From NCBI GenBank assembly GCA_038087875.1, contig CM075988.1, positions 7,938,001-8,002,000 on the forward strand: a stretch of 64,000 bases of DNA, written 5' to 3'. Below are positions 3,199-52,300 of the stretch, one piece after another. Every line of letters starts with the position of its first letter. Position 1 is the first letter of the stretch. Origin of the DNA: Malacoraja senta. Taxonomy: Eukaryota. The notes under the pieces were generated by a model. It had not been told where the DNA came from. It did no database searches and worked only from the letters and a program-made list of their open reading frames with translations. The position numbers were made by a program, and so were the translations under genes.

Positions 3199-5347
<2,149 letters not shown>

Positions 5348-16329: not shown

Positions 16330-16490
16330 ATTTGGTATCACCAAAACCCCTGAAGCGGCATCCTGCTTGATTTTCTCAAACACCGACCTATGAGGCAGAA
16401 TGGTGGGAAAATGTACACAAACATATCATCCCAATTTAGTGAAAAAGCATCAATTGCCACTGCCCCTGGATCTGGTGCCTATGAAACATA
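16330..16490 (-). pseudogene. DIRS adenine-methyltransferase-like domain remnant
   Basis: Manual translation YVS*APDPGAVAIDAFSLNWDDMFVYIFPPFCLIGRCLRKIKQD..GVLVIPN. Confidence 0.85.
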
Positions 16491-16574
16491 TTTTGGCCTT
16501 CCATATAGAAGTACTATGTTCTTGAACACATCCTGGTTCCACATCCACTCTGTGTTATGATGGAATTTTCGTGA

Positions 16575-17763: not shown

Positions 17764-17979
17764 TTATTCAGTGATACTGAAGTCAAACTCCTTTTTTGGA
17801 ACATGTTGTATGGGTAAATCAGAATTTGCATTTAAGCTTTATTCAATGCCCTTGAATAACCTTCAGTATAAACATATCTGAGGTAAACATTTAATTGTAT
17901 CACATTAGATCTGTCTACATGAGAACCAGACCCTCTTACCTCCTTACCACCTGGCATTCTTCGCCGGCCTTGAGCTGGA

Positions 17980-20750: not shown

Positions 20751-21902
20751 GTCAGCTTACATACTGTAAGCTGTTCCTGAATCTGGCAGTGTGCACATTC
20801 AATTTTCTGCCTAACAGGAGTGGGGAGAAGAACAAATGAGACATCTTCCAATAACAGGTGACATTTCAGGTCAGGATCCTTCTTCAATCTGAAACATCAT
20901 CTATCCATTCTCCCCACTACCTGGCCCCTGTGTTCCTCCAGCACCTTGTATTTTGCTCAAGATTATAGCAAGTGCAATCTCTTGTGTGCCCCAAGCAATG
21001 TCCTGGTAATGTTTGTCTCTACTCTCTTTGGTGCAATCATGTCTAGTTTTATACAGAAATGATTGCCAGAGCAATTTAATCCTGGTTAAATCGATTTTGG
21101 ATTAGATAATGCTGGAAAAAAAAAATCAACTTCTGGGCTCCAGGTCATATATTTTCCAGATTTCTGTGAACAATTCTTCGACTGAAGAATTTAACTTCAC
21201 AATTCCAATTCCAGACTGAATAGCTTGACAATTATCGCTTCGTTAAAAACGCACTTACATCACTAATTACCAAACTTAACTTCCTGCAGAGAGTATAATG
21301 AGCAATTCATGTGCAAATCCAGCAACAACTTTGAAATAAAAAGAGGCTAAAGTTCAGATATTTTATGTGCAAACCAAATGGCGGAAAAGCACCAGTTGAA
21401 CAAGTTCAGGTTTGCCACTCGGGGTGTATTCTACAATGCCTGATCCTGCTGATTGATTTGCATATTATTTGCAGCATATGTCATTAGGAAGCTGTTATTT
21501 TTCCAGCCAAGTTTCCCTTGATGGCAGAAAAGCTCTCAAACCAATTTTTAATTGTGCTCGTGCAGTCTGGCAGTCATACAGCATGGAAACAAGCCCAATT
21601 TACCCTTCGGCCCCAGTTGCCTAAGCTGACCAAGATGTCCCATATGTACTAATCCCACCTGCCTGCCTTTCGCCCATACCCTGCAAAATCCTTCCTATCC
21701 ATGCACCTGTCCAAATGCAATTTAAATGTTGTTATAGTACTTACCTCAACTATTTCTTCTGGCAGCTCATTCTGTATAGCCACTATGTGGAAAAATTGCT
21801 ACTCAGGTTTCAATTAAATCTTAGCCCTCGTACCTTAAACCTATGTTTCTTGACTCCCCGACTGCGTAAAAGACTCTGTGCATCTACCCTATCTATTATA
21901 TG

Positions 21903-31499: not shown

Positions 31500-32876
31500 C
31501 TGGGAATAGCCCTAGGTAGCAATCACCTAAGAGGATCGGCAAGAAGCTATAAATAATGGAAGTGATCCCATAAAGTGGTAAATCAGCGGGCAGAATGTAC
31601 ATTCCTGACAAACAGTGACAATTCAGAAAAAAAATCTCAGCATCACAAGCAAATTGAGATCACAGTCTTCACAATTGCAGATGGGGTTCTTGTCACTGTT
31701 TGACTCTCTCACGCCCCAGGATGGGAGAGCTATGTTGTACATTGCAATGGGGGGGGGGGGGGGTGGGGGGGGAGGGGAGGGGGGAACGTGAGACCCATCC
31801 TGGGCGGCATCACACTAGTTGTCTATCCACTTCCTTGACCTCGATGACGTCAACAGTATTGAATATCAGGTGATATGGCGGATTCATTAACGAACGTTAA
31901 CTGAATCCAGTCAAGTCTCATTTGTATTCCAGCTAAATCCAAATGGAAGCTGGTTCAGTAAAACAGGGTAATACTAAGCACATTCGGAACCACAGCCAAG
32001 CCCAGCTTCATTGGGCATGGTTAACTCGGCGCTACTGAACACAGCCACAGAACTAATTGAAAACCAAACATTGATTAGGAGTTCCAAGTGATTATTACGA
32101 ATGGTGAAATGTCTAGTAAATAAAATGTCATTTAGATTTTCTTTTAAAAACCCAGATACTTTTATTTGTATTTGAAGCTGCAATTTGTTTGGTTGGTGGG
32201 GGGAGGCATTGTCTGTTGCTACTGTTTTAGAATCATTTGGCATTCTTTGTAAACTGTTGCTCCTGCTTTCCAACAGTTCGAACTCAACAGAAACCTCACA
32301 AAGGCAGCGCAGACAGGCGGTAAAATCTATCACAGGATAGTCAATACTGTTTGAAAACAGAATTTCTAAAGGGCTGACATCCTTTATGTGACAATCTTTC
32401 AAGGATGGTAAACCTCTACCTCCCCGATCCTGGAGAGGAAGAAACCAACTCAGCTGGACAGAAATCTGTGTGTTTTTTTGCTGGTAAATCGCAGAAGCGA
32501 AAAAAAGAAATGCTGAGCATGCCCCTGTGTTTGGAAATGTTGCTTTTCTGACGGTGTAGTTTCGAGTGAGGTTTTACAAAGAGAATCTTGCTCTCTCTTC
32601 TTTCCCCCCTCTCTGGATTCCATAGATGTTGCAGTCAGCCCTGGTCCCCAGCTCAGCCCTTGTCCCAGCATGGTGCCATCAAGCCTTTCTGCCCCATTGT
32701 TCGACAACTTAGAAAAAGAAGAGGAAAAACACAAAAGCAGTTGCAAACATGCATGATAACAAATTCCAATAATTTACCAAGGGGGTGGAATGAGACAGGC
32801 ATCAGACTAAGTCGGTGCTGCTGATGCTGCCGTTGTTACCGGCCACAGTGGCAACTCTCCCCAGCACATTTCCTAC
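31500..32876 (+). promoter_or_regulatory. Putative promoter / 5' UTR of first exon A
   Basis: Part of a roughly 4.8-kb SINE-free island (about 31500-36350). Contains a G-tract at 31749-31784 and a CRE palindrome TGACGTCA at 31845-31852, and lies directly upstream of a signal-peptide exon. Confidence 0.5.
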
Positions 32877-33033
32877 ATGATGCCTTCCTTTGCTTTGCTC
32901 TTGCTTTACCTATACATTTTTGTCGAGGCAGAGAGCTCTAAAGTCTGCCGATGTCAATGTACCTGTCCGCTGGACAGGCCTCTGAGAGGGACGAGGCATC
33001 TACACTCCTTCAAGCCCAGCCACAGATCTCGAA
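32877..33033 (+). CDS. First coding exon A of a secreted or type I membrane protein: MMPSFALLLLYLYIFVEAESSKVCRCQCTCPLDRPLRGTRHLHSFKPSHRSR, phase-1 donor
   Basis: ATG preceded by an in-frame stop at 32808. Hydrophobic signal peptide with VEA cleavage-like site. Consensus donor GAA|gtaagt. 157 nt, in a repeat-free island. Confidence 0.75.
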
Positions 33034-36000
33034 GTAAGTACTAAACCTTCTTCACACAGACCCTTTACAATTGCTTTTCCTCAACAATCAAGGTTTGTAT
33101 AAGGCTCTCCAAGCATCTCTCTTCCTCTCTCATTCTGTCCTCAAATAAACACTTTTTTCCCTTCAATACAATAGGGGCTGATTACAAATTTTAATGACCT
33201 TTTTGATATGCATTTCCGCCTTTTCTCTCTTGACTCGAGTTAACTGCGTCTCTTTTTTACCCCCTAAAAAGAAATATGTAAAACTAGTTAAGTGTCTCTT
33301 TGTTGAGTCATTGGACCATCTTGTATAGAGATAACACTCGGGCGAGTCTCTTTCTATCAATTTACTATTGAAATGTAAGCACGGGTCAAAACTCAGACCT
33401 GATCTCCCAGGAGGAAAAACAAACAGAATTTTAATTAGCTTTATCTGAACCGCAATAGTCTTTGTGAAATGGAAATTATTGCGTGCAAATGTAAGTACAA
33501 TAAAATAACAAGTGAGGGAAAAAATGACAATAACTCCTTTTAAATATGTTCTCAACTTAAAGTTTGCATTGACTTCCATCAGTAACAAACGTTTTAAACA
33601 AAATCTTTCCATCCAAAATTCCTCCATCTCTTGCCATGACTTATCGTCGAAATTCTTAGTCACCTATGCCCACCCGTTTAATTAATTTATAGCTCCCTTA
33701 CATCTCCTGAAATCCCATTCAATTCCCCCTCCTCAATAATATTTCATAGCGTTAAACTACATAAAACTTGCCCTCACGATGTTAGTTTAAAAAAATAACT
33801 GAGCAATCCTACACAATCGCCGAAGGAGGTGAAAGCTATTTTATTAAGAGCTCCACGCAAAGCAAAATAAATAAGTAAACATCAGCATTAACTGTAATGG
33901 GAACCCGGCAACAATCCCTACAGTTTCTATTCACTGACTGTAACGTCGGTCAGGTATACCCATCCAACGCAAAGTACCAAGTGATCTATTTAGACCAGCC
34001 GTCCAAATGGTTTATATCTTAACAAGGCGAGCAGCGAGGTAGACATCGCTAACACAAAGGAAAGCTTAAGAAATATTAAAACAGCATTGTGCGTCATAAT
34101 TAATTTATTTGTTTAATGTAACTGTAACAAGGAGCTGACATATATCGCCATTGTAACTATAAGAACTTATGTGTATATGTTTCCGAGAGTTTACATTCAA
34201 TATTAATCTCCCTGTATGTCCATACATTTTGTGTCTATATATGTTCCATGGTTCCTTTATCATGTTTAATTAATTCAAGGTACTGTGAAATTCTTTAATT
34301 TTTACATATATGTCAATAAGATTATTGCCATAACTGTAGTTTGTGTCTATGGGATTACATTTAATCTTCCCCTAAAATATATATTTGAAAAATTAAAGGA
34401 ATAAAATGTAATGTTCTTGTAGGCAATAGTTGATCTCAGCATTAAATTATTTAGACCAGCTTTGGAAAGAAAGCTTATGGTCAATCATACACATAATTAC
34501 ATAACAATGAGCCACTCGTATATGCTCTTCTTCCAATTATGCCCCATCTCAATTATGCTAGTTTCTATCTCTTCAATTAATTTTAGTTCTGTTTCCAGCA
34601 TATTTTAGTTGAAAGTCTATTTTTTTGCTCAAAACACTAAGCAGGCTCACATAATATAATAGCCACAGACGAGCAAATAGCTACCGAAGAGCATATGCTC
34701 AGTAACGAAAGCTGAATGAATTCTCGCTAAAAAATCAATTGTTTCAAGGTGTTGCATAGCAGCATCAGCGGATTTAAAATTGTCTTTCAATGTTAATTTT
34801 GTCAATCGCTGTTAGCGTTTTGTAATGAATAATGCTCTGTTCATGCAAGTTTCATTGAATTGTGATTGTATTAAATTCCCAACAGGCCATGTCCCTTTCA
34901 TGGCCGCTCCCACTGGATCCCACTTCTTTCATGTCAAATTTTTATTGGATTTGTTTTGTGTTAAAATTCCATTAGGTTGGCTTGTTACACGTGTACCTTG
35001 CATTGGATTCCATCTATTTTGTGATTATTTGTTTCTCAGACATTAGTGCCTGTCCTTTCGGGACTGATCTTCTTGCATAGCTTGGCCTATATATGATTTC
35101 ATACTCCTACTGATTTGCTTGTCTGAACTGCCCTCTAAGCGGCTTGATTGGCAACAGAGTTAATGCAAACAAGGCAAAGATTGGACAATAAATGTTGACT
35201 TGGCCAACAATACCCACATCCTGAGATTATCAATTATTAACCTTTCCCTGTTGGTTTGCTGATTAATGCATCCCTTTGCAGTTATAATGTTATTTTACCA
35301 CAATCACTAATAAGGTTTAATGATAAAATTGAATACTGCAAGGAGTCACCTATATCAAGAGAGAAAACAGTAGGGATGTTGGTGGAGCCTGATGTAAGTG
35401 AGTTTATTTGCCTGATGGATTTAAGTGGCTCTCTGAAACATTGCTTTAGCAAAAGTCCAAATGCACGGTGCTGGAATCTGGTGATTTAAATATATTTTTT
35501 GGTGATATATTATAACAGTCAGGAAACAATATAACCCTATACCATTGGTTCATGAATCAATTCACTCAGTTTAATGCAGGAAAGTATATTGGTTCCTATA
35601 GTTATATCACCCCTAATAGAAAGTTGATTCATTTCAATTCTTGCATAATTCTGAATTTCTGCTGCTGCTGAAAATAATTGGATTTTATAAGTAAATTAAT
35701 TTTGAAACTTGAAGAAAGCATTCCTTGGAATTGTTTGTGCTGTTGCTCATTGATATAACAAATGACCAAGAAAACTTTGACTAGTTTAGAAAAAATCAAA
35801 ATTGAAATATGTGCCTATTAGAGAAGACTTCTATTCGAAACGCTTCACTGCTTCAACGCCAATGTTCACATTTCCACAGCCATTCCTTGATTTATGGAAG
35901 AAATGCAATTTAGAAAACATTTGTTGAAGTAAAATGTCATAACTTGAAAAAGCTATGTAAAATGCTTGACAGCTATGGTAAAACCTATTTGTCTGCATGG

Positions 36001-36667
36001 TGAGTGGTGCGTGATTAATCACAGTGAAAAATAGATATTTAATTTGAAGGCACCCCCACCACAAAGGGTCACCAGCGATGTATTAAAAATCCATAAATCA
36101 AACATTCATGAATTGAGGAATACCTGTATGCAGTTTATCTACAGGAAAACGATTCAGAGTGTATGCTAAGCGGAAAGGTGGGAAGCAAGTGTCACATCAG
36201 GTAAAATTAACACGTGACCGAAACCTTGAACAAACCAATGGGTTTTAAACAACATTTTAAAGAAGAAAGAGATAGAATTGGACAGAGCTGGGAAGGTTTA
36301 GGGAGGAAATTCCCAAACTAGTGATTTTGGCAAAAGAAGATGCAGTTTGTGTTAAATTTTATTGTGTATTGTGTGTTCTTTTTAAGTGTATCGCTGCTGT
36401 CAAATTCATTTCACTGCACCTTCGGGTGCATGTGGCGAATAAAATTGACGTTGATTTTGACTTTGACTTTGAAGCTAATAATGGAGTGAAATAAATAAAC
36501 TGAAAAAGAGTAGATTTGGAGAATTGCAGAGCACATGGAGTTCCTTAAAGATTATAGATGTGGAAGAGTGTCCATGGGGATGTCTGTGAGAAAAATAGGG
36601 AGGGATTTGAATGCACAGTCTTTAATTTTAAAACATCACAGAAAAACAGGCAATATAAATCACAAGT

Positions 36668-36695
36668 CTGAAGAAGGGTCTCGACCCGAAACGTC
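36668..36695 (+). ncRNA. Minimal hammerhead ribozyme-like motif (intact core) in solo Penelope-derived module
   Basis: CTGAAGA-A-GGGT/CTCG/ACCC-GAAAC-GTC. An identical copy is at 39034-39061. Confidence 0.65.
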
Positions 36696-37709
36696 ACCCA
36701 TTCCTTCTCTCCAGAGATGCTGCCTGTCCCGCTGCGTCTATCTTCAATATAAATCAAGTAAATGAAGAACTGTCCCCATCCAAAATGTCACCTAGCCATG
36801 CTCTCCAGGGATGCTGCCTGACCCGCAGAGTTACTCCAGCATGTTGTATCTTCCAATAAAAATCAATCTATCTTGTAATTAACTATTGGCATTTCAAGTC
36901 AGTTTTCCAGGAGTTTAGTCGACACAACTGTCACAGCATTTCGGAACTTAACTGTGGGCTGAGAGAAAATGCCTAAGTTTCAATTTACAGGACAACCAAT
37001 ATAAACTCCCATTCATGGCTGGGGTGTGAGGAGCGGAGCATAAACTACACACACAGAAGGTGAGATCATCAGTGTGAGTGGGCAGGCATCTCTCCCACAG
37101 AGATTATCAGCATGTGCCAGAAGCCTGGGGGCAAACTTATCCTCAGCCGACCGCACAAGATTAGGAATGAAATAAAATGAGATGAAAATATCAGTTGACC
37201 ATAATTCTTTATAATTTCTGTAAAAAATAAATGAAACTTGTGCATTGAAGCAAATGGAGCAACTTTTTTGGCTTGAAAGCAGTAAGTCCCACATTTCTCT
37301 TAATTGGCCAATTAACCACTCATTTTACACAAAATTAGTTGCTTTCATTATTTTTTAATGTGGTAATTTTTTTTTACTTCCGCTTGATAAAACCTGCCTG
37401 AAAGAGACTGTTTTGTAGCAGCGTGTGGTGTAATGCTCTTCCAGTGACTGAGTTTGTAGTGTATAGAGGCAGAAGCTGAATGCTCCCACTACTGGATGCT
37501 CTCACTAAACAGAACTATGATCATCCAAACATTCTTGCCACTTTGGTGAGTGGCAGATTTTATGGACTACTAGTCGTATTAATAGTTCGACCCACTTTTA
37601 GTTTACTTTCAGATGTAACACGGAGATTTGCCAGTGAACGAGAGGAGTTTATAAGGAGCATGGGCACCGAGCCTTGATGACTTGATAAGGTCGATGACAT
37701 TGGTCTGTG

Positions 37710-38750
37710 GAATGGGATATTTTCGGATTGGTTGCAGGTGACTTGTGGTGTTCCGCAGGGGCTCGTTTTGGGGCCATAAGTTTTCACGTTGTATATCTAT
37801 GACTTGGATGATGGAATTGATGGTGTTATGGTCAAGTTTGGTACAAAGATAGATGGAGGGGCGGGTAGTGTTGAGGATGCAGGTATTCTGCAGAAGGACT
37901 TGGATAGTGGGCAAAGGCGTGGCAAATGGAATAGAGCGTAGCAACGAGTACAGTCATCCACTCTGGCAGAAGGAAGAAATGCGTAGACTATTTTCTAAGT
38001 CGAAAGATTTCCAAAATCAGAGGTGCAAAGTGACTTGGGGGAACTGGTGCGGGATTCCCAAATGGTGAATTTACATATTGAGTCAGTTGGTAAAGAAGGC
38101 AATGCAATGCTAGCATTCATTTCAAAGTGGCTAGAATATGAACACAAGGGTGTAAAGCTGAGGCTTTATAAATTGCTGGCAAGGACACATTTGGAGCATT
38201 GTGAGCAGTTTTGGGCTCCAGGTCTGAATAAGGATGCATTGGCATGGGAGAGGGTCCAGAGGAGGTTTACGAGAATGATCCCTGGGATGAATGGGTTAAT
38301 GTATGAGGAGCGTTTGATGGCTCTGGGCCTGTACTTGCTGGAGTTTAGAAGGATGAGGCGGGGGGGATCTCATTAAAACTTAACAGATAATGAAAGGCCT
38401 ATTTGAGTGTAAAGGATGTTTCCAGTGATGAGAGAGTCGAGAACCAGAGGGCACAACCTCAGAATAAAAGGATTTACCTTTAGAATGGCAATGAAGAGGA
38501 ATATCTTTAGCCAGAGGGTGGTGAATCTGTAGAATTCCTTGACATAGACGGCTGTAGAGGCTAAGACATTGGGTATTTTTTAAAGTGGAGATTGACAGGT
38601 TCTTGATTAGTAAGGGTGTCAGGGGTTATGGGGAGAAGGCAGGAGAATGGAGTTCAGAGGGAAAAATAGATCAGCTATGATCAAATCATGGAGTAGACTC
38701 AATGGACCAAATGGCCTAATTGCACTCCTATGGTCTTATGGTCTTATGGA
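37710..38750 (+). mobile_element. CR1-family LINE ORF2 3' part, decayed
   Basis: VTCGVPQG..LGP, YIYDLDDG, LYKLLARTHLEHCEQFWAP..ERVQRRFTRMIPGM..LGLYLLEFRRMR, and (atggtctt)n tail. Confidence 0.9.
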
Positions 38751-39105
38751 CCTCGTGAATTTAGGAAGAGCTCGGGAACAATGTTCTGGCCATTTTAAAA
38801 GGTGTGAGAATCATGGCGCATTATTGATCTCTCTAACTTCAAGTAACCCCGGCATTCCCTCTCCCTCTATTCCTCCACCATCCAAGTCGCACAGGCTTTG
38901 TTTTCACCCAATAAACAGCTAACAGTGGCCTGTTTCCTTTATCGTCGTTACTTTTTGGCATATCTTTCATTCATTGTTCTTTATCTCTCTACACCATCAT
39001 CTACATCTCTCATTTCCCTTATCCCTAACCAGTCTGAAGAAGGGTCTCGACCCGAAACGTCACCCATTCCTTCTCTCCAGAGACGCTGCCTGTCCCGCTG
39101 AGTTG

Positions 39106-39787
39106 TGGGCCTGTCCCACTTAGGCGACCTTTTAGGCGACTGCAGGAGACTATGCGGTGGCCACATGGTCGCCACATGTTCGCAGGTGGTTGCCGGGTAG
39201 CCGCCTTCATGGTTGTGAGGAGTTCCCGCATTCTGGGAACTAGTTGCGGCCTCATTATGGTCGCCGCACATTTTCCAACATGTTCGAGAATTCTCGTGCC
39301 GTAGGTAGGTCGCCAGGAGGTTCTAGTGGGTTGCCAGGAGGTCGAAGGTCCTCGTAGGTTGTAGCCAGTGCTGACCGGTGAATTTCATTGGCTTACTGGG
39401 AAAAAAACCCATAAGCAGTAGTTTCCCGAACCAAGGATAACCGACCGGTAAGGTCTCCACTCCTTCTCCCCCTTCTTCCCCCATCTTCTCCCCCCTTTCC
39501 CCCCCCTCTCCCCCCTCTTTCAAAGGACGTGACCCCTCCCATACACTGTGCTTTCACCATCTTAATTACAGCGCCAACCTTCCTGTTCATCGCGGTGTGT
39601 GTCTGTTTCACATTGGCTTTGCACCGTGTGAATTTCACTCAGACAGCGCTCCCTTCGCTTGCCCTGTCCCCCGCCTGCATAACGGGCTGGTGAAGGAAGC
39701 GATGTGTGTGTGTGTGTTCCACTCTGACAGTCGCCATTCCGGTCGCCGGCAGTTCACCTGAAAAATCACCTAAGTGGGACAGGCCCA
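39106..39787. mobile_element. PIF/Harbinger-type MITE inserted in a Penelope terminal module
   Basis: TIRs tgggcctgtcccacttagg / cctaagtgggacaggccca. It interrupts ctgagtt|acttcaacattttgtgtctatc. Confidence 0.8.
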
Positions 39788-41267
39788 TAACTTCAACATT
39801 TTGTGTCTATCTTTGTGCTTGAAATTGAACCAGGTAAGCCAAATGTCAAATCGACAGAGTTTCTAACATGTCGATAGTGGATCATCAGATATTTACTGAA
39901 ACTGGTCAGCATCAATTGACTGTTTGTGGAATGCTAGTGTCTACATATTAACTCCTGTAATTCCTGTGCTACAATCACGCACCTTGAGGCATCATAGATT
40001 AGAGCCCACAGGTGCGTTAATATTACAATTCATGCTGCAAATGTTGACGATATAGGCAACCAGACTGAAGGCATTGGCATACCTCTCAGCAATGCATTGT
40101 CACACCATTCCTAACTCTAACATTCAATATACCAAGTATTGAATAAAAACAGAACTACTTAAATATGTTGGAACATTGCAGGAAGAAGCTTTAGGTCACG
40201 TTATTTTAGACTTTAGAGAAACAAAGCGGAAACAGGTCATTTGGCTCACTCAGTAAGTGCTGACTGGTGATCACCCCGTACTCCAACACTATCCTACACA
40301 CACTAGGGACAATTTATAATTTTACCAAAGCCAATTAACCTACAAACCTGCACATCTTTAGAGTGTGGGAAGAAACCGGTGCACCTGGAGAAAACCCACA
40401 TGGTCACAGAGAGAACGTACAAACATCGTTCAGACAGCACCCATAGTCAGGATTGAACCTGGGTCTCTGGCGCTGTAAGGCTGCAACTCTACCACTGCGA
40501 CGCCGTGATGCCCAATCTCCTAGTTGTGAACTTTTATAATGAACTGACACCCAAAGACACAAACAGCTAATGTCAGGAATGTCTAGTCCAGTGCCAAAGA
40601 TGTGTGCAATATTCTTTCTGTTGTTCTTGAAAGTGGGTGAGTCTAATTCCACTGAAGTTACCCTGGCTATTCTTCACAGCATGATGTGCACTGGAGTTTG
40701 TTACAGCCAACACGAAGAGGACCCGAATCTCAGGCGTTGATCTTATTACCTCTACAATCAACTGATGTCTCAAACAAAACACTCTAAACCAAGGTTTAGT
40801 TCAACTAACTTCTAACCCAGCATCTGCAGTTCTTTCCTACACATTTAGTTCAATTTAATCTTTATTAGCATTCAAGTTATTCCAGCACACATTCCACCAC
40901 TGACTTCTAATAACTGACAATTTAATGTATTATTCTGGCATTACTTCTTGCACTAAATCACAAGACTCATGACTTACACTCATATATTACCCACATGAAT
41001 GAATTGGCCAGATTCACTCCGATGGTCGGGTTAGACATTTCTGAGCTTCAGACGCGGGTCCCCCTTCCTGCGATGGTTGTTCCTGGGGTTGTTGCTTCTG
41101 ATGTCTCGGTCTGCCCTTATATATTATTTTATTTCCTTCAATTTCCTTCAATCTTCTAGAGAAAGCCTTTGTTTTAAGCCAGGGCTCTCCTGACGTCAAT
41201 CATTTCAATTTGTCACTCAACCAAGGGCTGACTAAACAAAACACATCTTCGTTCCTTATCAGTCTAG

Positions 41268-42005
41268 AGAGTGGTGTCACAGGTAGAAAGGGTGGTCAAA
41301 AAGGCTTTTGGCACATTGGTCCTCATCGGTCAGGTATTGAGTATAGACATTGGCAGGTCATGTTACAGTTGTATAATGCATTGGTGAGGCCATAGCTACA
41401 GTATTATGTTCAGTTTTGGTCACCATGTTATAGGATATTGTCAAACTGGAAAGCGTGCAGAGAAGATTCACAAGGATGTTGCCAGGACTCGAGGGCCTGA
41501 GCTATAGGGGGAGATTGAGCAGGCTAGGGCTTTATTCCTTGGAGCACAGGAGGATGAGGGGTAATCTAATAGAGGTGTACAAAATTATGAGAGGAAGTCT
41601 GAAGAAGGGCCTCGACCCGAAAAGTCACCCATTCCTTCTCTCCAGAGATGCTGTCTGAGTTACTCCAGCTTCTTGTGTCCATTTTAGATTTTAAAATATA
41701 GTCTTTTGTCCAGAGTTGTAGAATTAATAACCAGAGGACATAGGTTTAAGGTGAGGGAGGGTAAGATTTGATAGGAACCTGAGGGGTAACTTATTTACAC
41801 AAAGGGTGGTGGGTATATGGAAGGTTGCTGGAGGTGGTAGTTGAGGCAGGTACTTTCATAACATATAAGAGACAATTAGACAGGTACATAGATATGAAAG
41901 GTTTAGAGGGTTACGGGCCAAATGCGGGCAGTAGGACTAATATAGATGGGACATGTTGCCTAGCATGGGCAAGTTGGGCCGAAGGGCCTGTTTCTGTGCT
42001 GTATG

Positions 42006-42008
<3 letters not shown>
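41268..42008 (+). mobile_element. CR1-family LINE 3' fragment with Penelope module inserted at about 41595-41690
   Basis: QVMLQLYNALVRP; QRRFTRMLPGLEGLSYRGRLSRLGLYSLEHRRMRGNLIEVYKIMRG. Confidence 0.88.

Positions 42009-42085
<77 letters not shown>
42009..42085. repeat. (CT)n microsatellite at CR1 tail
   Basis: Direct reading. Confidence 0.95.
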
Positions 42086-42089
<4 letters not shown>

Positions 42090-43069
42090 TACATACACTT
42101 TTAATTACGAAAAAGTTTATTTTTGGGGAAGTAAAATGAAGGTTAGCTGACATTGGGCTGTAGGTGGCATTGTAGCAGAAAGTGCCCCTGTGTCCATACA
42201 TGTGCACTTCCAGTCAGAGGTCACTGGAGGTCAGCCATATAAGCCTTGGAAACAATGCAGTCAATTATATGGTTGCACCACTGTCCCATTGCAGGTCCAT
42301 GAATGTTAGTTAAAGTCTGCAACCATCATGTTCTTTATGATCCATTGCAACCTTGCACCATCTAGCCACTGAATAATCAGGCAAAGATCCACATCAACAA
42401 AGTTCAAACATTGCAGATTAACATGAAACATTTATTGCCATAGACTCAATGGACTGAAGAGCCTGTTGTATGACTCCATGGTTCTATTACTTTGGAAAAT
42501 AACTTTTGTCTTCAGACTTTAGAGATTTAGCATGGAAACAGGCCCTTCAGCCCATTGAGGCCACGCCGACCAGCAATCACCCCGTGCACTAGCACTATCC
42601 TACACACAAGGGACAATTTACAATTTTTACCAAAACCAATTAACTTACAAACCTGTACGTTGTTGGAGTGTGGGAGGAAACTAGAGCACTTAGAGAAAAC
42701 CCATAGGGAGAACGGAGAAAGCGAGTAAAGGCACCAAGGATACAACAAACATCAAGGATGTGTAAATCAGTCTACAATCTGCCTTGGCTTCTTTGTACAT
42801 CACAAGCTGTTCCTGGTTTGTGAATTTGGGAACTGCATTGGGTAGTTGAATGGAGAAACCCGATGGCCCTATCCTTTCAATATTATTTTAACAATTCAGA
42901 GATGCGAAATTTATTTCTACCAAAGTAGCTGTGGAATTTAAATTCAATCATTAATCTGAAATTTAAAAAAAACCTTGTCATTTCAAAACAGGTGGATTTT
43001 TGTAAGATCATATTTGGTTCACTGATTCTCCGCAAGAGAGTTAAACTTGCGTAGATGGGCATTATGGAT

Positions 43070-44030
43070 TAGACCCAGATAGAGTGGATGAAGAGAGGGT
43101 GTTTCCAGTAGTGGGAAAGTCTAGCACCAGAGGGCACAACCTCAGAATACAAAGACGTATGTGTAAAATGGAGATGAGAAGGATGGGGAAACCATGGAAT
43201 TCATTGTCACAGATGGCAGTGGTGACCAAATCATTTGGTATTATTGAAATGGAGATTGATAGGTTCTTGATTAGTAAGGGTGTCAAATTTTACGGGGAGA
43301 AGGCAGGAGAATGGGATTGAGAGAGAAAAACAGATCAGTCATAATCATATGGCGGAGCAGACTCGATGGGATGAATGGCCTAACTTTGCTTCTGTGTCTC
43401 ATGGTCTTATGGTTGGGCCAAAGGGCTTGTTTCTGTGCTGTGTGATCATAACTACACCATCTTTACCCAGTCCACACTGCATTTGATTCCAAACTGCTGA
43501 TAGCCAAGCAGTTTGCAGCAACTGATATGCTGTGACGGAGAAAGAGTTAAAGAAGGTGATCGTCTGGCATCGACCTGGAAATGAACAGTGAGGACACCAT
43601 CCATCGTGTTAAGTTACACCACAATGGGGCTAAACTCAGAACAGAGTTGACAGCTCAGAAACAGGGAGGACCTTATTGAAATGTACCGAATAGTGAAAGG
43701 ACTGGATAGAGTGGATATGGAGAATACGTTTCCACTAGTGGGAGAGTCTAGGACCAGAGGTCATAGCCTCAGAATTAAATGACATTCCTTTAGGATGAGA
43801 AGGAACTTCTTAAGTCAGAGGTTGGTGAATCTGTGGAATTCTTTGTCACAGAAGGCTGAGGAGGCAGAGATAGATAGATTATTGAATAGTACGGGTGCCA
43901 GGGGTAATAGGGAGAAGGCAGGAGAATGGGGTTAGGAGGGAGAGATAGATCAGCCATGATTGAATGGCGGAGTAGACTTGATGGGCCAAATGGCCCAATT
44001 CTGTATCTATCACTTATGACCTTATGACCT
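43070..44030 (+). mobile_element. Two CR1 3' end fragments (about 43070-43445 and 43665-44030)
   Basis: gtttccagtagtggg..accagagggcacaacctcagaat and ggagaaggcaggagaatggg..gatcagccatgattgaatggcgg modules. Confidence 0.8.
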
Positions 44031-44600
44031 TAAACAGGCAACCATGTGATGCCACTGCCCACAGGAACCACTGGGAACGCAGGGGAAGCAAGTCTGTTTA
44101 TTACTAATCCATTTCACAGGATGTGGGCAAGGTCAGCATTTAGTGCCCTTCCCTAACAGCTCTTGAACAAAGTGGCTTCTGAGACTATTTCAGACAATCA
44201 AGGGTGACAGCTTCCTTGCATTTTACCACTGTGATCACTCATTGCAATGTCATGTAACTGAGGACACCAGTTTTTGCATGGAATTAATTACTCAAAGTAA
44301 TTTGTTCAAAGACAAGAAAGAGTTTGCATTTTTGATAGTGCCTTTCGTGACTGAAGGACTACACTGAGCATTGTAGATGTCACTGAAGCATTGATTCAGT
44401 AGTTCCACTGCTGTAATGTTTGATACACCACAGCAAGTTGTTGGAGATCAGCGTCTCACACAGAACAATGGAAGATGACCAAGTGATCCTTGAAGAATAT
44501 GTTAAAAATACATTGAAAAAGCTGAGCAAGTATGGCCGCATCTAACAGGGCGGAGCAGGGAGAGAAGGCAATGTGTTTGATTCTCCAGCTGTGATTCTTT

Positions 44601-45017
44601 GGCCCCCTTCGGTCGTGGCTGACCATGGATGTCTCCAGGGTGCTATTCCCTATATGGAGGACACCTATGCGTGACTATGTTTAACGTGGGGAGACGGTTG
44701 CACAGACAGCCACCCCACGGTCCTTGACAGATCTGGGTCAGGATCCAGTGGAATGGAGTCCATGACGACCGGAGACCCTTTTCTGCTGCAGCCTTCATCC
44801 GCCTTCCCAGCCGTTGTGACGCTCCACTGAGGTCAGCCATCGTCCTCCGCCTGTTCCACCGTTGAGGTCCTGGTTGGATTGCTCTTTGTCAGAGACCTCC
44901 CCCTCTACCTTACCGCCATGGATGGCCCTACCAGGAGCATAGCTCCAGACGGCATCGCTCTCAGGATCTCAGGTCCGCACAAGCTTCTCCACCACGACAA
45001 GGTGACAATCCATGGAG
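44601..45017 (-). mobile_element. Short RTE-derived non-autonomous element (RTE-like 5' UTR joined to RTE-like 3' end)
   Basis: Minus strand starts ..gtcaccttgtcgtggtggagaagcttgtgcgg..gagctatgctcctggtagggcc, which resembles RTE/BovB/Expander 5' ends. It ends catggtcagccacgaccgaagggggcc, an RTE-type 3' end. No ORF. Confidence 0.6.
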
Positions 45018-45769
45018 AATCGGTGATTAGACAGATAATAATAGAGGCCTGTATACCAGCTGCCTAAATGAAGTGAAATCAAACAAAGCTGTTCCAGACT
45101 GAAGGTGTAAAGCTAATGTCTGCCTGATAGATTAAGTTACTATGTCAATTGCTTCTCCAGGCCTTCCATAGTTCACAGTGCAGTAGACTGAGCATCTCTC
45201 TGGCATTAGTAGAAACAAGGAACTGCAGATGCTGATTTACCACAAAAAAAGGACAAAGTGCTGGAGTAAATCAGAGGGTCAGGCTGCATCTCTGGAGAAC
45301 ATGGATAGGTGATGTTTCTGGTTGGGAGAAGGCTTCAGCCATCTGCCAAATGAATCAAGGGATATGGGAAAAAAAGCAGGAACGGGGTACTGATTTTGGA
45401 TGATCAGCCATGATCGTATTGAATGGCGGTGCTGGCTCGAAGGGCCAAATGGTCTACTCCTGCACCTGTTTTCTATGTTTCTATGTGTCCTCTCGCCTGT
45501 ATCCAGTTGCTGCCTGACCCGCTGAGTTACTCCAGCATTTTGTGTCCATCTTCGATGTAAACCAGCATCTGCAGTTCATTCCTACACATTTCCTCCACCT
45601 ATTACCTGCCACGCTTTGTGCTGCCCCTCCTTTTTCCAGCTTTCTTCCCACCCACCCCTTACAATCAGTCTGAAGAAGGATCCTGACCCAAAACGTCACT
45701 GAAACATTTCCTCCAGAGACGCTGAGTTACTCCAGCACTTTGTGTCCTTTTATGTAACCAACACCTGCC

Positions 45770-46139
45770 CAGGCACGGAAATCGCTGTCAAAACCTGCGG
45801 GGGACACAATGTCTTGGCAACCGCGCGCACACATGCGCACACATGCGTACACATGCGTACACATGCGAGGCTTCGGCCGTGGGGCTTGAATCGGCCCGTT
45901 CACGGGGTCTTTCATCGGCCGGCGGAGGCTTCAACATCAGGAGTCTCGATCGCCTTGATGCAGCAGTTTGATTTTAAGCCGCACCGGGCGCTGAAAGGCC
46001 CCACGAACGGGCCGATTCAGCCCTTAGATAGCGGCTGATAAAATCCGGATGACAAAACATGGGGGGGGGACGTCCCCCACCTCTCAAAGCAGTGGGGACA
46101 TGTCCCCCCTGTCCCCCCCCCCAGGATTTCCGCCCCCTG
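45770..46139. mobile_element. Candidate hAT-like MITE inserted in a Penelope module tail
   Basis: Imperfect TIRs caggcacggaaatc / gatttccgccccctg. Flanks cctgcc / cctgca. CpG-rich interior. Confidence 0.5.
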
Positions 46140-47329
46140 CCTGCAGCTGCTTGCTTCTACTAAATTTGAGCACCTCACTTGGTTGTTTAAATTCTCCACC
46201 CCATCCCTTCTCTAATTGCTCTGTCTGTGGTCTCCTGCACTGGTCTCCTGTGGTGCAAGCTTGAGGAACAACAACTCATCTTTCATTTAGTCACGTTGTC
46301 AGTTTGTCTATCATGTGTAGCTTGCTTTCTCTGTCAATATCAGCATTGGCCTCTTCTGCTGTAAATGATTGATCTGTGTTCTTGGCTCAGTTTATCATCC
46401 TCCATTGGCACAGCTTCACCTGTTGGACCTGTCCTACAGCACTGACATTAACACATGGAGCTTCTTTGTTTGTATCATCACCTTCCAACTACCTTTGTTA
46501 ATCCGCTTTTACTGGATGATCCTCATCCACATGACAAAATATTCCCTTTGTCCTATCCAAACCTTCACTTTCACCTTTGATGCAGTTACTCATTTCATTC
46601 TTTATTATCATTCCCATTCTGGCAAAAGATCTTCAACCTTAAATGTTAATATGTGTTTCTTCTTCCACAGTTGCTGCCTGACCAGCCGAGTATTTCCCAC
46701 GTTATCTATTTTTACATCAGATTTCCAGCAGTTTTTTAAAAATATGTTCCATTCCTCTAGTTTCTCATATATTGCTACTACTATCCAGATACTTTCTGCT
46801 CAACAATTTAGGGAAGATAAATCTAAAGATGTTCTTATCCTCTGGGTGAAGGATCATCTTCCCATCTCATTCATGAAGTGTGGACCACGTAATTGGAGAT
46901 ATATTTATTTGCTTCTGTACATTGTCCCTGGTGTATAGGATAGAACGAGTGTATGGAGGATCGTGGTTGGCGCAGACTCGATGGGCCAAAGGGCCTGTTT
47001 CCACCCTGTATCTCTAAACTAAAACTAAAGATGCTGGTTTACACAAAAGGACACAAAATGCTGTAGTAACTCTGCGGATCAGGCAGTATTTCTGGAGAAC
47101 GTGGATAGGTAACATTTTGGGCTGGGTCTCTTCTTCAGACTGATTGTGGTGAACCTTTGGTGTACTGTGCTATCACAAATGTCTCTTTCTGTACACATTT
47201 ACCAAAAAGTAACCTACAAATTATCTGAAGTTATTTTATCTTTCCCTTTCAATTAATTTTAAAGAAGCCAGATTGATCACCTATTCATTTTCCTTTTGTC
47301 CTCTAAATACCACCACCTCAGAGACATTG

Positions 47330-47640
47330 TTTGAGACATCAGGGTCTGTATTCAGTAAAGTTGCTGTTGTCTTTCTGACCACCACGTCCCTGCTTGACCA
47401 TGGTTATGCTGGTTAACTAACACCCAATATTGCCAGGACACCAACTTCTTACCATTGACAATGGGGAAGACTGAAACGATTGTCTTTGGTTCCTGCCACA
47501 ATCTCGGCTCCTGGGAACTTGTCTGAAGGTGAGCCAGAATGAGTTTGAGTTGAGCAGCCTTGTTTCTGTGCAGGTAAGGAGCTGAGCTTTCATCCACATG
47601 CCTGTTCCAGCTTCATCGGCAAGACTTGGCTCAGGCCCCA
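47330..47640 (+). mobile_element. Ancient L2-like LINE RT remnant
   Basis: Translatable as NFLPLTMGKTETIVFG, resembling the L2 motif NFLxLNxxKTE. Confidence 0.45.
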
Positions 47641-48919
47641 AACACTAGTTATTCTTCCACTCCCTCCACACTCACTCATCCAACATTCTGTAGCCCCTAT
47701 GGTAAGTTACTCCAAGTTCCATCATAGTTGTGCATATTGACCCACACTGGATCTCAATCGGTTCACAAATCTTCAGCCTTTTTCTTCCTCTGTGAGCAAC
47801 CAATCTCTCTCTAGCTACACCTATTGTGTGCGTCCACACCTTTTCCAAGCCCACAGCCTTCTTCAATTTCCACAGTGGTGCAGCATCTAGAGATGCTGTC
47901 TCTTGGGGTGGGACAGAGATCTGGGCTCGATCCCAACCTCAGCTGCTGGATGTGTGGAGTTTGCACGTTCTCCTTTATGATTGTGTCAGTTTGCACTGGG
48001 TGCTATGGTTTCTTCCCACATCCCAAGGATGTGCGGGTTTGTAGGTTCATTGGTCTTAGTAAACTGCCCCCAGTATTTAGGGGGTGGATACGAAAATGAG
48101 ATAACATGGATCTAGTGTGAACGGGTGATCGATGGTCAGTGTGGGCTCGGTGGGCCGAAGGGCCTGTTTTAAGCTGTATCTTTCAATCAATCAAACATTC
48201 CTCCAGCGTAGTGCCCTCGTGGCCTCAAGTTTAATCTCCATTCACAGTAACTTGACCCTAAATAGACACAAAAGCATTCAGCAGATGGGGCAGGAGGTGT
48301 TGAGTGCGAAACTGATTGAATATTTCAATTTTGTAAACTTCTCACCGGACGGTTATTGATCCGGGATATTAACTGTATTTCTCTCCCCATGCTACCTGAC
48401 CTGCTGAGTGTTTTGGGACATGTTACAGAATTTGGAAGATATTTCAGCTTTGAAACTATGAAAAATAATCTTTGGGACCAGAGGGTGGAATTGTTTTTAA
48501 AATGTTCATTATGCATCATTGATTTTTCAACACAATCGCATCAAGACAGAAAACTTCAGTAAGCGATTAGGGGAGAAAACAGATCCATTTAATAAAGAAA
48601 CAAAGAACTGCAGATGCTGGTTTATACCAAAGATAGACACAAAGTGTTGGAGTAAATCAACTGATCAGGCAGCATCTCTGGAGAAAAGGGACCCTTTTTC
48701 TCCAGAGATGCTGCCTGACCTGTTGAGTTACTCCAGCACGTTGTGACTATCTTTAGATCTATTTGATATGTCAAGCTCAGTAACTTCTCATCCCAAGGAC
48801 ATTGATCTGAAACACATTAATTGTGCTTCTCTGTCTGACCTGGTGAGTTTGGGGACTTTTTTTTCAGTTTTTATTCTCGGTGACTATAAATAATTTTTTG
48901 CTCCTCCATCGCCTTGAAG

Positions 48920-49243
48920 GAGTTAAATTACATGGGCGGGACTTGGGGGTTGGGAGAGCGGAGTGATAGAGGGCTGTCCCATCCGCACCCAGGCCGTGAG
49001 GGAAATGTCACGAAGCAGAGGGCAGGGGAAGGGACAACACACGGTGTAGTCAGTAACCTTTTTATTAACAAACCACAGCAAAGAGGGAGAGGGATTTTAA
49101 ACAAGAGTCGGCGAAGAAGAAAGGTTGATGGAAACATGAGGGGGGCGGGGCAGCACTAGAAGTTTAACCTTTGCAAAGAGTTTTCTGGGAGTTGTTTGAA
49201 GTTTGATGAGTTTGAGGGAGCGGGTTTCAGATGCTCAGCACAG
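48920..49243 (+). promoter_or_regulatory. Putative promoter / 5' UTR of first exon B
   Basis: GC boxes GGGCGGG at about 48934 and GGGGCGGGGC at about 49142. CpG-retaining unique sequence directly 5' of a signal-peptide exon. Confidence 0.5.
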
Positions 49244-49310
49244 ATGGACGTTGAGGCACGACTACTCTTCCGGCTTCTACTGCTTTGGAAACTCTCCGCT
49301 TCCTTGGGAG
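49244..49310 (+). CDS. First coding exon B: signal peptide MDVEARLLFRLLLLWKLSASLG, phase-1 donor
   Basis: 67 nt from ATGG to a near-perfect donor GAG|gtgagt. Hydrophobic core plus small-residue cleavage region. GC boxes upstream. Confidence 0.7.
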
Positions 49311-52300
49311 GTGAGTGCAGAAGTTGTTTCAACTAGTGACACCTCGGTTGTCATCTCAGATTTGTATGGAGCTTTCAGACAATTTTAGGTATTCTCACAC
49401 TGTGATTGTAAATGAAAGAAAACACAGTATCTCTGCGTTAGTTGCATTGGAACAACGTCGATTAAGTTGCAAGTTCTGTAGAGCCGGAATGAAATGCCCC
49501 AAAAGCAAACGGTAACGGGGTAGAAACAAGAAACTGCGGGTACTCCTTTACACATAAGGACACAAAGTGCTGGTGTAACTCAGCGGGTCAGGCAGCATCT
49601 CTGGGGAACGTGAGAAGGTGAAATGACATCGAAATCTGTTTCTCCCTCCACAGATGCTGCTTGATCAGTTGAGTGTTTCTTTATTTGCCTTTAATTCCCA
49701 TTTAACTTTGTACTGTTCAATATTTAGGTAAAACACCTCGTTAACTTTCTAGATAGACGCAAAGCGCTGGAGTAATTCAGTGGGACAGGCAGCATCCCCG
49801 GAGAAAAGGAGTAGGTGATGTTTCGGGTCGAGACCCTTCCTCGGACTTCTTGAAACTCTCTTCCTTCTCAACTAGTAGTGCAAAATTCCCAGAGCGTAAT
49901 GGGAACAGGAGTATTTCTAGTTTTATATGAAATTTAAAAAACCTGTCTCCTAATGTAGTCCCATCGTTAAATTGCATGCGTTTTCCAGAAGAGGTCGTAT
50001 CGACGAGTGCATGCGAATCTCCAAGTTTCATAAACATTGCTTTGAAGCTGCGAAAAACAAGCTTTTTGGAGTAGATGGTGGAATAGTTTAGTAAATGTTT
50101 CATTGTACATCTTTGCTTTTTTTAAAAAACATTCGCGTCTAGCCAGATAAACTTCTGTAAGCGTCGGGATAAGATACCAGATCTATTTGTAAAACGACCC
50201 TTCTTAAGGTGTTCATCCAGACACAACACATTTAATTTCCACAGAAATGCAGGAACTAACATGTGTCTGAGCCAGCCAGTAATTAACTTCATTTACATTT
50301 TTAAAAGAACATCTATTTAATTTGATTTCTTTTGTACTTTTGGAAACGCCGGAATGTAATCACAATGCCTCCTAAAGCCCTCCTTCACACAAATATTATT
50401 CCTAGCCCCCCAAAATTATACTTTACAGACACTTTGTAAAGGCTTTGATTCTGTGCCATTGTTTGATGTTGCTTTTTTGTTGATTTTGCCTATCCCAACT
50501 GATAAATGCACTAAAAGGACTTGGTCAGGCTGCACAGTTTGTTCTGATATCAGTCTTGATGGGCAGCGAGCCATTATTATTGGTCTCAGCACAATTGAAA
50601 GGAGAGAAATCGGTCTCTTTGGTCAGTGGTGCTGGAAAAATGTTCTTAAACGTCTGGGCATGTTGCTTTCCCCATTGAATAACAGCTTGTGTTTATATAA
50701 ACCCCTCTAAGACATTCACCGAGCTTGAAGATCAAACCACACAAGGAGATAATAGACAAGGCGATGAAAAGCTTGATCAAAGGGAAGGTTTTAAGGAATG
50801 CATTAAAGGAGAGAAGATGATATTGAGAAAGGAATTCCTAGTTCCGTACAGCAGCTTAGGGAAGGAGGTGAAGGGATAAGCCACCAACAATGAAGCCATG
50901 AATATGATGGTCCAAGTGATTAAAAACGGAGACACAAGGAACTGCAGATGCTAGAATCTTGCATAGAACACAAAATGCTGGGGTAACTCAACGGGTTTGG
51001 CAGCTCCTCCTCAGGATACGGACAGGTGACATTTTGGGTCAGGACTGTTCTTCAAACTGATGCTCATTCACCCCACCCCTCATCTGACACCCTTTTGTCT
51101 CCTTCTTTCCCTTTTTGTCTTATTTTCATCTTTAGCTTTTGTCCATCCATTTGCCAATATAATGTAAACCCTCGCCTTTATCCATCTATGTCCTGTCCCC
51201 AGCTCTTTTCCAGCTTTCTCCTCCTTCTACAATCAGTCTGAAAAAGGATCCCGATCCAAAACGGCTTGTCGCAGCCAACACCAGGGCTCTGTGGGGGTGG
51301 AGCACAGTCTAGAGCCCTTCCCCAGCAGGACATTGGGGAGGGGGGAGGGGGGTCGGGGTCTGGGGGAGATGCCCCTCAAACAAGGGAAGGGATCTCAACA
51401 AATGTGTCCATATGGCTGCTTGATGTAAGGATAGTTTGTGAACACTAACACAAATAACACTGATGAATGTATGTATAGATGCTGAGAATGTTGGTGGACC
51501 TTTGGCACTGTTCTTGGTTTGCATATATATTTTTTATTATTCTGAATAAAGTATTATCTCTGGAAATAAAATGTTCCCCAGAGATTCTACTTGACCCGCT
51601 GAGTTACCCCTACACTTTGTGCTCTGAACCAAAGCAGAGAAATACATATCCCTCAAAGAAATAAATTGTTTGTTTGCATTGGTACTGATGGAGAAAGCTT
51701 CATTAACAAACCAAACACTTGTGGCAGCACTTCAAGACAACACCATTGGGAATGTTCCAATGATATCAACCATTGCATTACACACAACTAATTTCCAGAG
51801 ATTTATTTTCTGCAGAGCATGTTATAATCTGGCATATGCAGCTTAAGATGATGGTAGTATCATATTAAGCAGAAATACCAGAGGGGAATTGGTTATTTAA
51901 AAGAAACTGAAGAAGAGCAGGTGATTGAGAAATTGAATAACTCTCTTAAAGAGCTGTTCTGGGCCTTGTACGTACCTTATGATCCTTTTGGTTGGATGGC
52001 TCCATAAGAATCAAAATAGATGTGAAACGTGTAATCTGTTTAATGCACATTCACACTTGCTTCAAAGGTAAATGGAAACCCTTGTATTTGTTGGGAAGAT
52101 GGTGGTGATAATAATTATATGACGGCCTACAGTCTGCTGGGAGAACAAAGAATGTTGAAGGAATTCATCGTTCCTCCTCTAAGCTACCTTACACATCAAC
52201 CCCTCGGCAAAAGGGATTTCACTTTAATTACTTTAGAATCATTGAGTTGTACTGCGTAGATAAGGGCCCTTTGGCCCATCATGTTCAGTCTCAAGAAGGG

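What the first reader, a model, noticed from the sequence alone, without database searches (positions are those of the whole stretch)
32877..49310. Two phase-compatible signal-peptide exons 16 kb apart: likely alternative first exons of one receptor gene (ROBO-like?)
Seen: both exons are on the + strand, start with ATG, encode a signal peptide, end in strong phase-1 donors and lie in repeat-depleted islands. Neither is in the ORF track. Exon A adds a Cys cluster (CRCQCTC) and a His/Arg-rich stretch after the signal peptide; exon B is signal peptide only. Known: ROBO genes use long (a) and short (b) first exons spliced in phase 1 to an exon beginning (G)SRL. From memory, fish Robo4 has a Cys- then His/Arg-rich N-terminal extension. 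The ROBO identity is only a hypothesis, and I found no convincing exon 2 in the window.
Basis: partly seen in the sequence, partly recalled or inferred. Interest (0 to 1): 0.7.

Follow-up and report, generated by a model that had tools for sequence, protein, structure and literature searches.

The report
Two ancient starts for skate ROBO4
A skate's blood-vessel receptor gene ROBO4 has two separate start exons 16 kb apart that a close relative's transcripts join to the same second exon, one of them adding a cysteine-rich, basic tag also present in gene models from sharks to lizards, so the single start reported for human ROBO4 is likely a later loss rather than the original state.

Summary
Confirmed: these are alternative first coding exons of ROBO4 in a skate. 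Exon A (32877-33033) and exon B (49244-49310) both end in phase-1 donors. Spliced contigs from a relative (one study) join each donor to the same next exon, which begins SRLRLDES and lies beyond the window. The peptides match the long and short N-termini of RefSeq skate models at 50/52 and 21/22 residues. The gene has 3 Ig + 2 FN3 domains and separates from ROBO1 at 100/100. Both forms occur in 33 of 51 hand-tabulated species, from sharks to lizards. The long form's CxCxCxC plus His/Arg tag matches no Pfam family and its function is untested. Human ROBO4 is reported to have one TSS, proposed to be a new promoter (PMC6389290). That argument rests on a human row that starts in Ig2, while the paper's mouse row is short-type. 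The isoforms are already in automated annotation, and two starts are known for ROBO1 and ROBO3. My ten searches found no paper describing them for ROBO4, and the scan holds no earlier ROBO note.

The parts
32877..33033 (+). ROBO4 distal first exon A, coding part: predicted signal peptide (about residues 1-20), CxCxCxC cluster (residues 24-30), His/Arg-rich tail; phase 1
   Evidence: 50/52 identical to Rhinoraja XP_078282906.1; 49/52 to Amblyraja and Leucoraja X1; joined to exon 2 in runs X1 and X2
32413..32876 (+). 5' untranslated part of exon A, as far as contigs reach; the true start is not mapped
   Evidence: contigs lie colinear at 32556-33033 (X1), 32559-33033 (X2) and 32413-32737 (X3), with no joints
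33034..33039 (+). splice donor GTAAGT of exon A
   Evidence: contig alignments stop at 33033 and run on into exon 2
49244..49310 (+). ROBO4 proximal first exon B, coding part: predicted signal peptide only; phase 1
   Evidence: 21/22 identical to Leucoraja XP_055516807.1; 20/22 to Amblyraja X2; joined to exon 2 in runs X1, X3 and X4
49014..49243 (+). 5' untranslated part of exon B, as far as contigs reach; the true start is not mapped
   Evidence: contigs begin at 49014, 49016 and 49025 and run colinear to the donor
49311..49316 (+). splice donor GTGAGT of exon B
   Evidence: the relative's contigs align to 49308, carry two further letters (one differing from the window) and then exon 2
48934..49148 (+). 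two GC-box (SP1-type) sites near the 5' end of exon B, at 48934 and 49142-49148; candidate promoter elements, weak
   Evidence: 3 pattern matches (2 sites) in 550 nt against a window mean of 0.21 and a maximum of 3; none near exon A
49311..64000 (+). intron continuing past the window end; the shared exon 2 (Ig1) is more than 14.7 kb from B and more than 31 kb from A
   Evidence: no exon-2 match in the window

Best explanation
These are two mutually exclusive first coding exons of one skate ROBO4 gene: a relative's transcripts splice each in phase 1 to the same Ig1 exon, likely from two promoters, giving one receptor body with either a bare predicted signal peptide (B) or a predicted signal peptide plus a roughly 30-residue Cys- and His/Arg-rich tag (A) that likely stays on as a flexible, disulfide-forming, sugar-binding arm. 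Shown: the exons, donors and phase; both junctions in a relative; ROBO4 identity; both forms in gene models across jawed vertebrates. Inferred: separate promoters with different tissue use; signal-peptide cleavage; loss of exon A on the line to mammals. Least certain (about 0.35): that the tag binds heparan sulfate through its basic His/Arg patch and links receptors or partners through its cysteines, which would change where ROBO4 is held and how it clusters while leaving the Ig, FN3 and cytoplasmic parts the same.
For: Junctions: exon A's donor runs into exon 2 in 2 of 4 runs laid (X1, X2), and exon B's in 3 of 4 (X1, X3, X4). The next-exon letters are the same in both, and run X1 holds both junctions. 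A is joined straight to exon 2, skipping B, and B's contigs extend 220-230 nt upstream of its ATG without a joint. RefSeq models of three skates and a sawfish hold both N-termini on one body. Identity: 3 I-set + 2 fn3 stretches, the layout given for zebrafish Robo4 (PMC10828313). In an Ig1-3 tree the 17 short-architecture proteins and 8 ROBO1 proteins are split at 100/100, and Heptranchias has one on each side. Depth: both forms in 33 of 51 tabulated species, including bichir, gar, eel, salmon, lungfish, Xenopus, axolotl, turtle and lizards. Tag: CxCxCxC in 26 of 40 long forms, at least CxC in 37 of 40; C26, C28 and R50 are conserved in 90% or more; 35-54% of the 26 residues before Ig1 are R, K or H. 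Residues 17-55 are low-confidence coil in the model. Robo Ig1-2 and Slit form a heparin-binding site (PMC10084454, PMC6620384). N-terminal isoforms of ROBO3 are said to differ in Slit binding (PMC5028924).
Against: No RNA of the window's own species was laid. The junction contigs come from one study of a relative (about 98% alike over exon A, 90-95% over exon B), and the runs are labelled 'RNA?', two of them 'probably DNA'; I take them as RNA because they skip the intron exactly at the donors. Contigs cannot show transcription starts or tissue. The tree has no ROBO2 or ROBO3 rows, and synteny could not be checked. 18 of 51 tabulated species were not scored as having both forms, including 14 of 22 cartilaginous fishes and both alligators; most rows are automated predictions. 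Amphibian and lungfish long forms keep only two or three cysteines, which weakens a strict four-cysteine mechanism. Nothing here tests sugar binding or disulfide pairing. No bird or mammal ROBO4 was among my hits, so loss in mammals rests on one paper's human CAGE result and its single mouse row.
Confidence: 0.9

Rival explanations
1. The exon-A tag is a propeptide that a furin-type convertase removes just before Ig1, so both isoforms end up nearly the same and the tag only affects folding, trafficking or latency.
For: A minimal R-x-x-R occurs in the last 26 residues before Ig1 in 37 of 40 long forms, and basic residues next to the junction are conserved.
Against: The full R-x-K/R-R consensus (recalled) occurs in only 3 of 40, and R-x-x-R is expected by chance in a stretch that is 35-54% R, K or H. 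None of the 12 papers listed for robo4 + furin + cleavage (of 15 found) had it as its subject, judged by title and abstract start.
Confidence: 0.25
2. Only the second promoter is under selection; the peptide after the signal sequence is a tolerated spacer.
For: The middle of the tag varies in length and sequence; the region before Ig1 is 61-80 residues long across the 40 long forms.
Against: The cysteine spacing and a basic tail are kept from skates to lizards, which a neutral spacer on an extracellular protein is unlikely to do.
Confidence: 0.15
3. Exon A arose in ROBO4 after it split from ROBO1, so the two-start layout resembles ROBO1a/b and ROBO3A/B by convergence rather than by descent.
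For: A profile of exon-A peptides scores at most 0.7 bits on the N-termini of 22 ROBO1-size proteins, while 88 of 265 held proteins hit at E<1e-3, none of them ROBO1-size. The database search with it returned 16 proteins, all of the ROBO4 architecture.
Against: ROBO1 isoforms in the same data also swap N-termini at the same G-S-R-L position, and signal exons diverge fast. This rival concerns the origin only and is compatible with the main explanation.
Confidence: 0.4
4. The gene is ROBO1 (as many NCBI names say) or another paralogue, or the two exons belong to different genes.
For: NCBI names the Rhinoraja, Leucoraja X1/X2 and most shark models 'roundabout homolog 1'. ROBO2 and ROBO3 are not in my tree.
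Against: 3 Ig + 2 FN3 rather than 5 + 3. Single full-length alignments to tetrapod ROBO4 (828-884 bits) against broken ones to ROBO1 (best piece 372-392 bits). The same sharks have a separate 1600-aa ROBO1. Both donors join the same exon.
Confidence: 0.02

Closest known systems
RefSeq skate ROBO4 models, e.g. Amblyraja radiata XP_032905895.1 (X1, long) and XP_032905897.1 (X2, short); Pristis pectinata XP_051895873.1 and XP_051895875.1
   Same: The same two N-termini on one body (49/52 and 20/22 identical to Amblyraja).
   Different: These are automated predictions, often named ROBO1; I found no paper that describes or tests them.
Human/mouse ROBO3A/ROBO3B and ROBO1 isoforms from alternative promoters (PMC5028924, passages; PMC6389290)
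   Same: Long distal and short proximal N-termini on a shared ROBO body, from alternative starts.
   Different: Different paralogue. No sequence similarity between the ROBO4 exon-A tag and ROBO1 N-termini. The CxCxCxC plus His/Arg tag is not in the ROBO1, ROBO2 or ROBO3 rows of that paper's alignment.
Mammalian ROBO4 (Magic roundabout; PMC6389290, PMC6620384)
   Same: Orthologous gene by architecture and tree position of non-mammalian ROBO4. The mouse row is short-type: hydrophobic leader, then Ig1, no cysteine cluster.
   Different: Human ROBO4 has one reported TSS and 2 Ig domains; the skate has two first exons and 3 Ig domains.

Membership tests
ROBO4 (non-mammalian type) | Three Ig and two FN3 domains instead of five and three | tested here: met
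   Pfam on the relatives' full proteins P0002 and P0005: 3 I-set and 2 fn3 stretches; the model agrees; zebrafish layout from PMC10828313. The window itself holds only the first exons.
ROBO4 (non-mammalian type) | Groups with tetrapod ROBO4 and apart from ROBO1 | tested here: met
   Ig1-3 tree of 25 rows: 17 versus 8 split at 100/100; unrooted, and no ROBO2 or ROBO3 rows.
ROBO4 (non-mammalian type) | Tail-to-tail cluster with ROBO3 | not testable with these tools
   No genome held; the 3' end lies outside the window. Feature from PMC6389290 section 7.
ROBO4 (non-mammalian type) | Cytoplasmic CC0 and CC2 kept, CC1 and CC3 lost | not tested
   Feature from PMC12308364. The consensus of alignment A2 shows a TYGYI motif and a proline run, but assigning them to CC0 and CC2 is recalled.
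ROBO receptors | Ig1 exon starting at (G)SRL and similar to ROBO1/2 Ig1-3 | tested here: met
   The junction reads SRLRLDESPP; top PDB matches of the Leucoraja protein are ROBO2 and ROBO1 (E 2e-177, 1e-130).
Alternative first exons (ROBO a/b type) | Each exon splices to one shared exon 2 in the same phase, mutually exclusively | tested here: met
   shown in a relative, one study.
Alternative first exons (ROBO a/b type) | Each has its own transcription start and promoter | not testable with these tools
   Contigs run 220-460 nt upstream of each ATG without a joint but cannot show starts; the promoter motif scan is weak.
Alternative first exons (ROBO a/b type) | Each encodes its own signal peptide | tested here: inconclusive
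   Hydropathy 2.79 and 2.64; helix at residues 2-17; no SignalP and no experiment.
ROBO1a-type long first exon | Sequence homology to the long N-terminus of ROBO1 | tested here: not met
   At most 0.7 bits on 22 ROBO1-size proteins.
Furin-cleaved propeptide | Conserved R-x-K/R-R before the mature domain (consensus recalled) | tested here: not met
   3 of 40 long forms; the minimal R-x-x-R in 37 of 40 is uninformative in so basic a stretch.

The most novel reading that the evidence does not exclude
Ancestral jawed-vertebrate ROBO4 was a two-promoter gene. The distal promoter makes an undescribed isoform with a conserved CxCxCxC plus His/Arg arm, used outside the endothelium, that clusters or tethers the receptor in place of the lost Ig4-5. 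Mammals became endothelium-restricted for ROBO4 by losing this distal exon and keeping the old proximal one, not by gaining a new promoter as proposed in PMC6389290. Fish and frog robo4 experiments would then have been mixing two isoforms.
Probability: 0.4. Interest if true: 0.62.

Novelty: new member of a known kind. Interest (0 to 1): 0.4.

Why it matters
ROBO4 is a textbook case of a neuronal receptor family member turned endothelial, and one published account credits a new, single promoter. Two first exons from sharks to lizards mean the short start is old and the single human start is probably a reduction. This can be tested directly in zebrafish or Xenopus with isoform-specific probes and promoter deletions. 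It also exposes a conserved, unnamed extracellular tag on a much-studied receptor, and flags that many shark and fish ROBO4 models are named ROBO1. The limits are that the isoforms are already in automated annotation, alternative starts are the norm for the family, and nothing here shows what the tag does.

Tried and rejected
None of these shows novelty. The exon-A profile search returned 16 proteins among 7983 candidates and missed many teleost long forms already in hand, so its lack of birds and mammals is weak evidence. The two-copy complex prediction of residues 21-162 gave no verdict (score 0.15, mark 0.32, alignment not used) and is not counted either way. No RNA holder was listed as on record; raw-read run X11 laid 0 reads and is no test. 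Run X2 had an exon-A contig but no contig over exon B, and X3 had B plus only part of A's UTR; contigs show presence, not absence, and tissues are unknown, so I do not count this as tissue-specific use. ETS, GATA, TATA and CpG scans of both upstream regions were near background; a hoped-for match of B's region to the human ETS/SP1 layout (PMC6620384) rests on two GC boxes only. The furin reading was not supported. Bedell 2005 (PMC1088354) is not held; neural and notochord expression of zebrafish robo4 is recalled, not read. In one search the rule mis-scored Discoglossus (long by eye) and Heterodontus (a model starting inside exon A); the count of 33 of 51 is left uncorrected. Species entered that table only if I had rows for them, and bony-vertebrate clusters were chosen by me, so it is not a random sample; species seen only as single representatives outside cartilaginous fishes (snakes, other frogs, turtles, teleosts) were left out.
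Full report
Observation. Exon A starts at ATG 32877 and runs 157 nt to a GTAAGT donor. Exon B starts at ATG 49244 and runs 67 nt to a GTGAGT donor. Both are phase 1, and 16.2 kb lie between A's donor and B's ATG. A lies in the longest repeat-free stretch of the window (5155 nt) and B in a 761-nt one, against 31.7% repeat cover by self-BLAST. A crude scan for such exons passes three donors on both strands (A, B and one at 40636), against 0.3 per shuffled strand, with the threshold set after seeing the peptides. The pattern alone is only modest evidence.

Identity. The exon-A peptide found 2 proteins among 13 candidates: a Rhinoraja model named ROBO1 (96%) and a Pristis model named ROBO4 (88%). 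Members of those and related clusters include models whose N-terminus is exon B. The window's peptides are 50/52 identical to Rhinoraja and 49/52 to Amblyraja and Leucoraja (A), and 21/22 to Leucoraja and 20/22 to Amblyraja (B), so the window is from a skate. The full proteins have 3 Ig and 2 FN3 domains, the layout reported for zebrafish Robo4 (PMC10828313, passages). In a tree of Ig1-3 from 25 chosen rows, the 17 short-architecture proteins and the 8 ROBO1 proteins separate at 100/100, and Heptranchias has one of each. Full-length BLAST favours tetrapod ROBO4 (828-884 bits, one piece) over ROBO1 (best piece 372-392 bits). ROBO2 and ROBO3 were not in the tree and synteny could not be checked. 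The NCBI name ROBO1 on many shark and fish models is therefore most likely a naming artefact.

Splicing. Contigs from four runs of one study of a relative were laid. At exon A, 2 of 4 runs laid (X1, X2) stop at 33033 and continue into a sequence that reads SRLRLDESPP; X3 covers only the UTR, and X11 (another organism) laid nothing. At exon B, 3 of 4 runs (X1, X3, X4) reach the donor and continue into the same sequence. X1 holds both junctions. A therefore skips B, and both exons extend 220-460 nt upstream of the ATG with no joint, as first exons would. The runs are labelled 'RNA?' and two 'probably DNA', but skipping the intron exactly at both donors is what cDNA does. No RNA from the window's own species was seen, and contigs cannot show starts or tissue. 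Exon 2 is not in the window.

Depth of conservation. Of 51 species for which I tabulated rows, a simple rule scored both forms in 33: 8 of 22 cartilaginous fishes, 17 of 17 ray-finned fishes and 8 of 12 lobe-finned fishes and tetrapods. The sample is hand-chosen and the rows are mostly automated models. All rows of both alligators were short. Among 40 long forms, CxCxCxC occurs in 26, at least CxC in 37, and 35-54% of the 26 residues before Ig1 are Arg, Lys or His; amphibians and lungfish keep fewer cysteines. Short leaders also share features: 23 of 30 have a Trp 6-11 residues before the junction and 20 of 30 end in EG or QG, which suggests exon B is one old exon as well. The exon-A tag matches no Pfam family or solved structure, is low-confidence coil in an AlphaFold model (residues 17-55), and does not resemble ROBO1 N-termini.

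How it most likely works. Two promoters (inferred) each supply a signal-peptide exon, and promoter choice decides whether the mature receptor starts directly at Ig1 or carries about 30 extra residues in front of it. I think the tag most likely stays on, with its basic His/Arg patch binding heparan sulfate next to Ig1 and its cysteines forming disulfide links to another receptor or a partner (about 0.35). This is inference from composition and from the known heparin site on Robo Ig1-2 and Slit (PMC6620384, PMC10084454, passages). A cleaved propeptide is the main rival (0.25): the full furin consensus, recalled, is present in only 3 of 40. A neutral spacer is less likely (0.15).

Comparison with print. 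Alternative promoters giving N-terminal isoforms are known for ROBO1 and ROBO3 (PMC5028924, passages). For ROBO4, PMC6389290 (passages, section 7, first part of section 12, supplement list, first part of supplementary file 6) reports one TSS in human FANTOM5 data. It argues that ROBO4 gained a new promoter because the protein is truncated by 186 alignment positions. In that paper's own alignment only the human row is truncated, starting inside Ig2, while the mouse row has a leader and Ig1 of the short type. The skate gene keeps Ig1 and the SRL junction shared with ROBO1. The stated basis for a new promoter therefore does not hold, although the paper's binding-site comparisons are a separate argument that I did not test. 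PMC12308364 (passages) notes Robo4 expression in mouse brain, so 'endothelium-only' is itself not absolute. Ten searches of the open-access library listed no paper on two first exons or a Cys-rich extension of ROBO4; the direct one, robo4 with 'alternative first exon', returned 0. Subscription papers, including the original zebrafish work, were not searchable and may mention isoforms. The other eight listed supplements of PMC6389290 were not read. The scan's own notes hold no ROBO finding.

Verdict. This is a real and correctly guessed feature: alternative first exons of skate ROBO4. It is already in automated gene models and is of a kind known for the family, so it is a new member of a known kind. 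The interest lies in the deep conservation of an unnamed tag and in the likely secondary loss in mammals, which rests here on one paper's human and mouse data and a weak negative search. Interest 0.4; 0.62 if the loss-of-distal-promoter account is right (probability about 0.4).

Noticed in passing
window 40570-40636 +: A third ATG-to-GTGAGT stretch between A and B, also 67 nt, phase 1 and hydrophobic (hydropathy 3.26), just outside a repeat. No skate model in my rows starts with it and no reads were laid; it may be chance (0.3 expected per strand).
   Followed up: partly
window 32413-32876 and 49014-49243 +: Both leaders hold upstream ATGs (9 in A, 4 in B); the one at 49206 opens an out-of-frame ORF that overlaps B's coding part up to the donor. 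Possible translational damping.
   Followed up: no
window 14986-19400: Pieces of a probable DIRS-type retroelement on the minus strand; a tyrosine-recombinase-like frame at 15198-15500 hits Phage_integrase at E 2e-4, below the curated cut-off. The DIRS label is recalled.
   Followed up: partly
window 21625-23379 + and 7784-8098 +: Reverse-transcriptase (E 4e-6) and GIY-YIG (E 5e-4) frames, both below curated cut-offs, consistent with Penelope-like elements.
   Followed up: partly
window 7347-8021 -: A frame matches Pfam ALKBH8_N (E 4.5e-18); from recall this family is a LINE-derived segment, so this is probably a retroelement piece and not an ALKBH8 gene.
   Followed up: no
window 2008-5345: A 3.3-kb CA-rich array, including about 2.1 kb of nearly pure CA repeat.
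   Followed up: no
proteins P0022, P0023, P0170: Cetorhinus, Carcharodon and lungfish models splice the short leader straight to Ig2, skipping the Ig1 exon in frame. A recurring Ig1-less ROBO4 form may exist.
   Followed up: no
proteins: Many shark, ray and teleost ROBO4 models (about 1100-1240 aa, 3 Ig + 2 FN3) are named 'roundabout homolog 1' in NCBI.
   Followed up: partly
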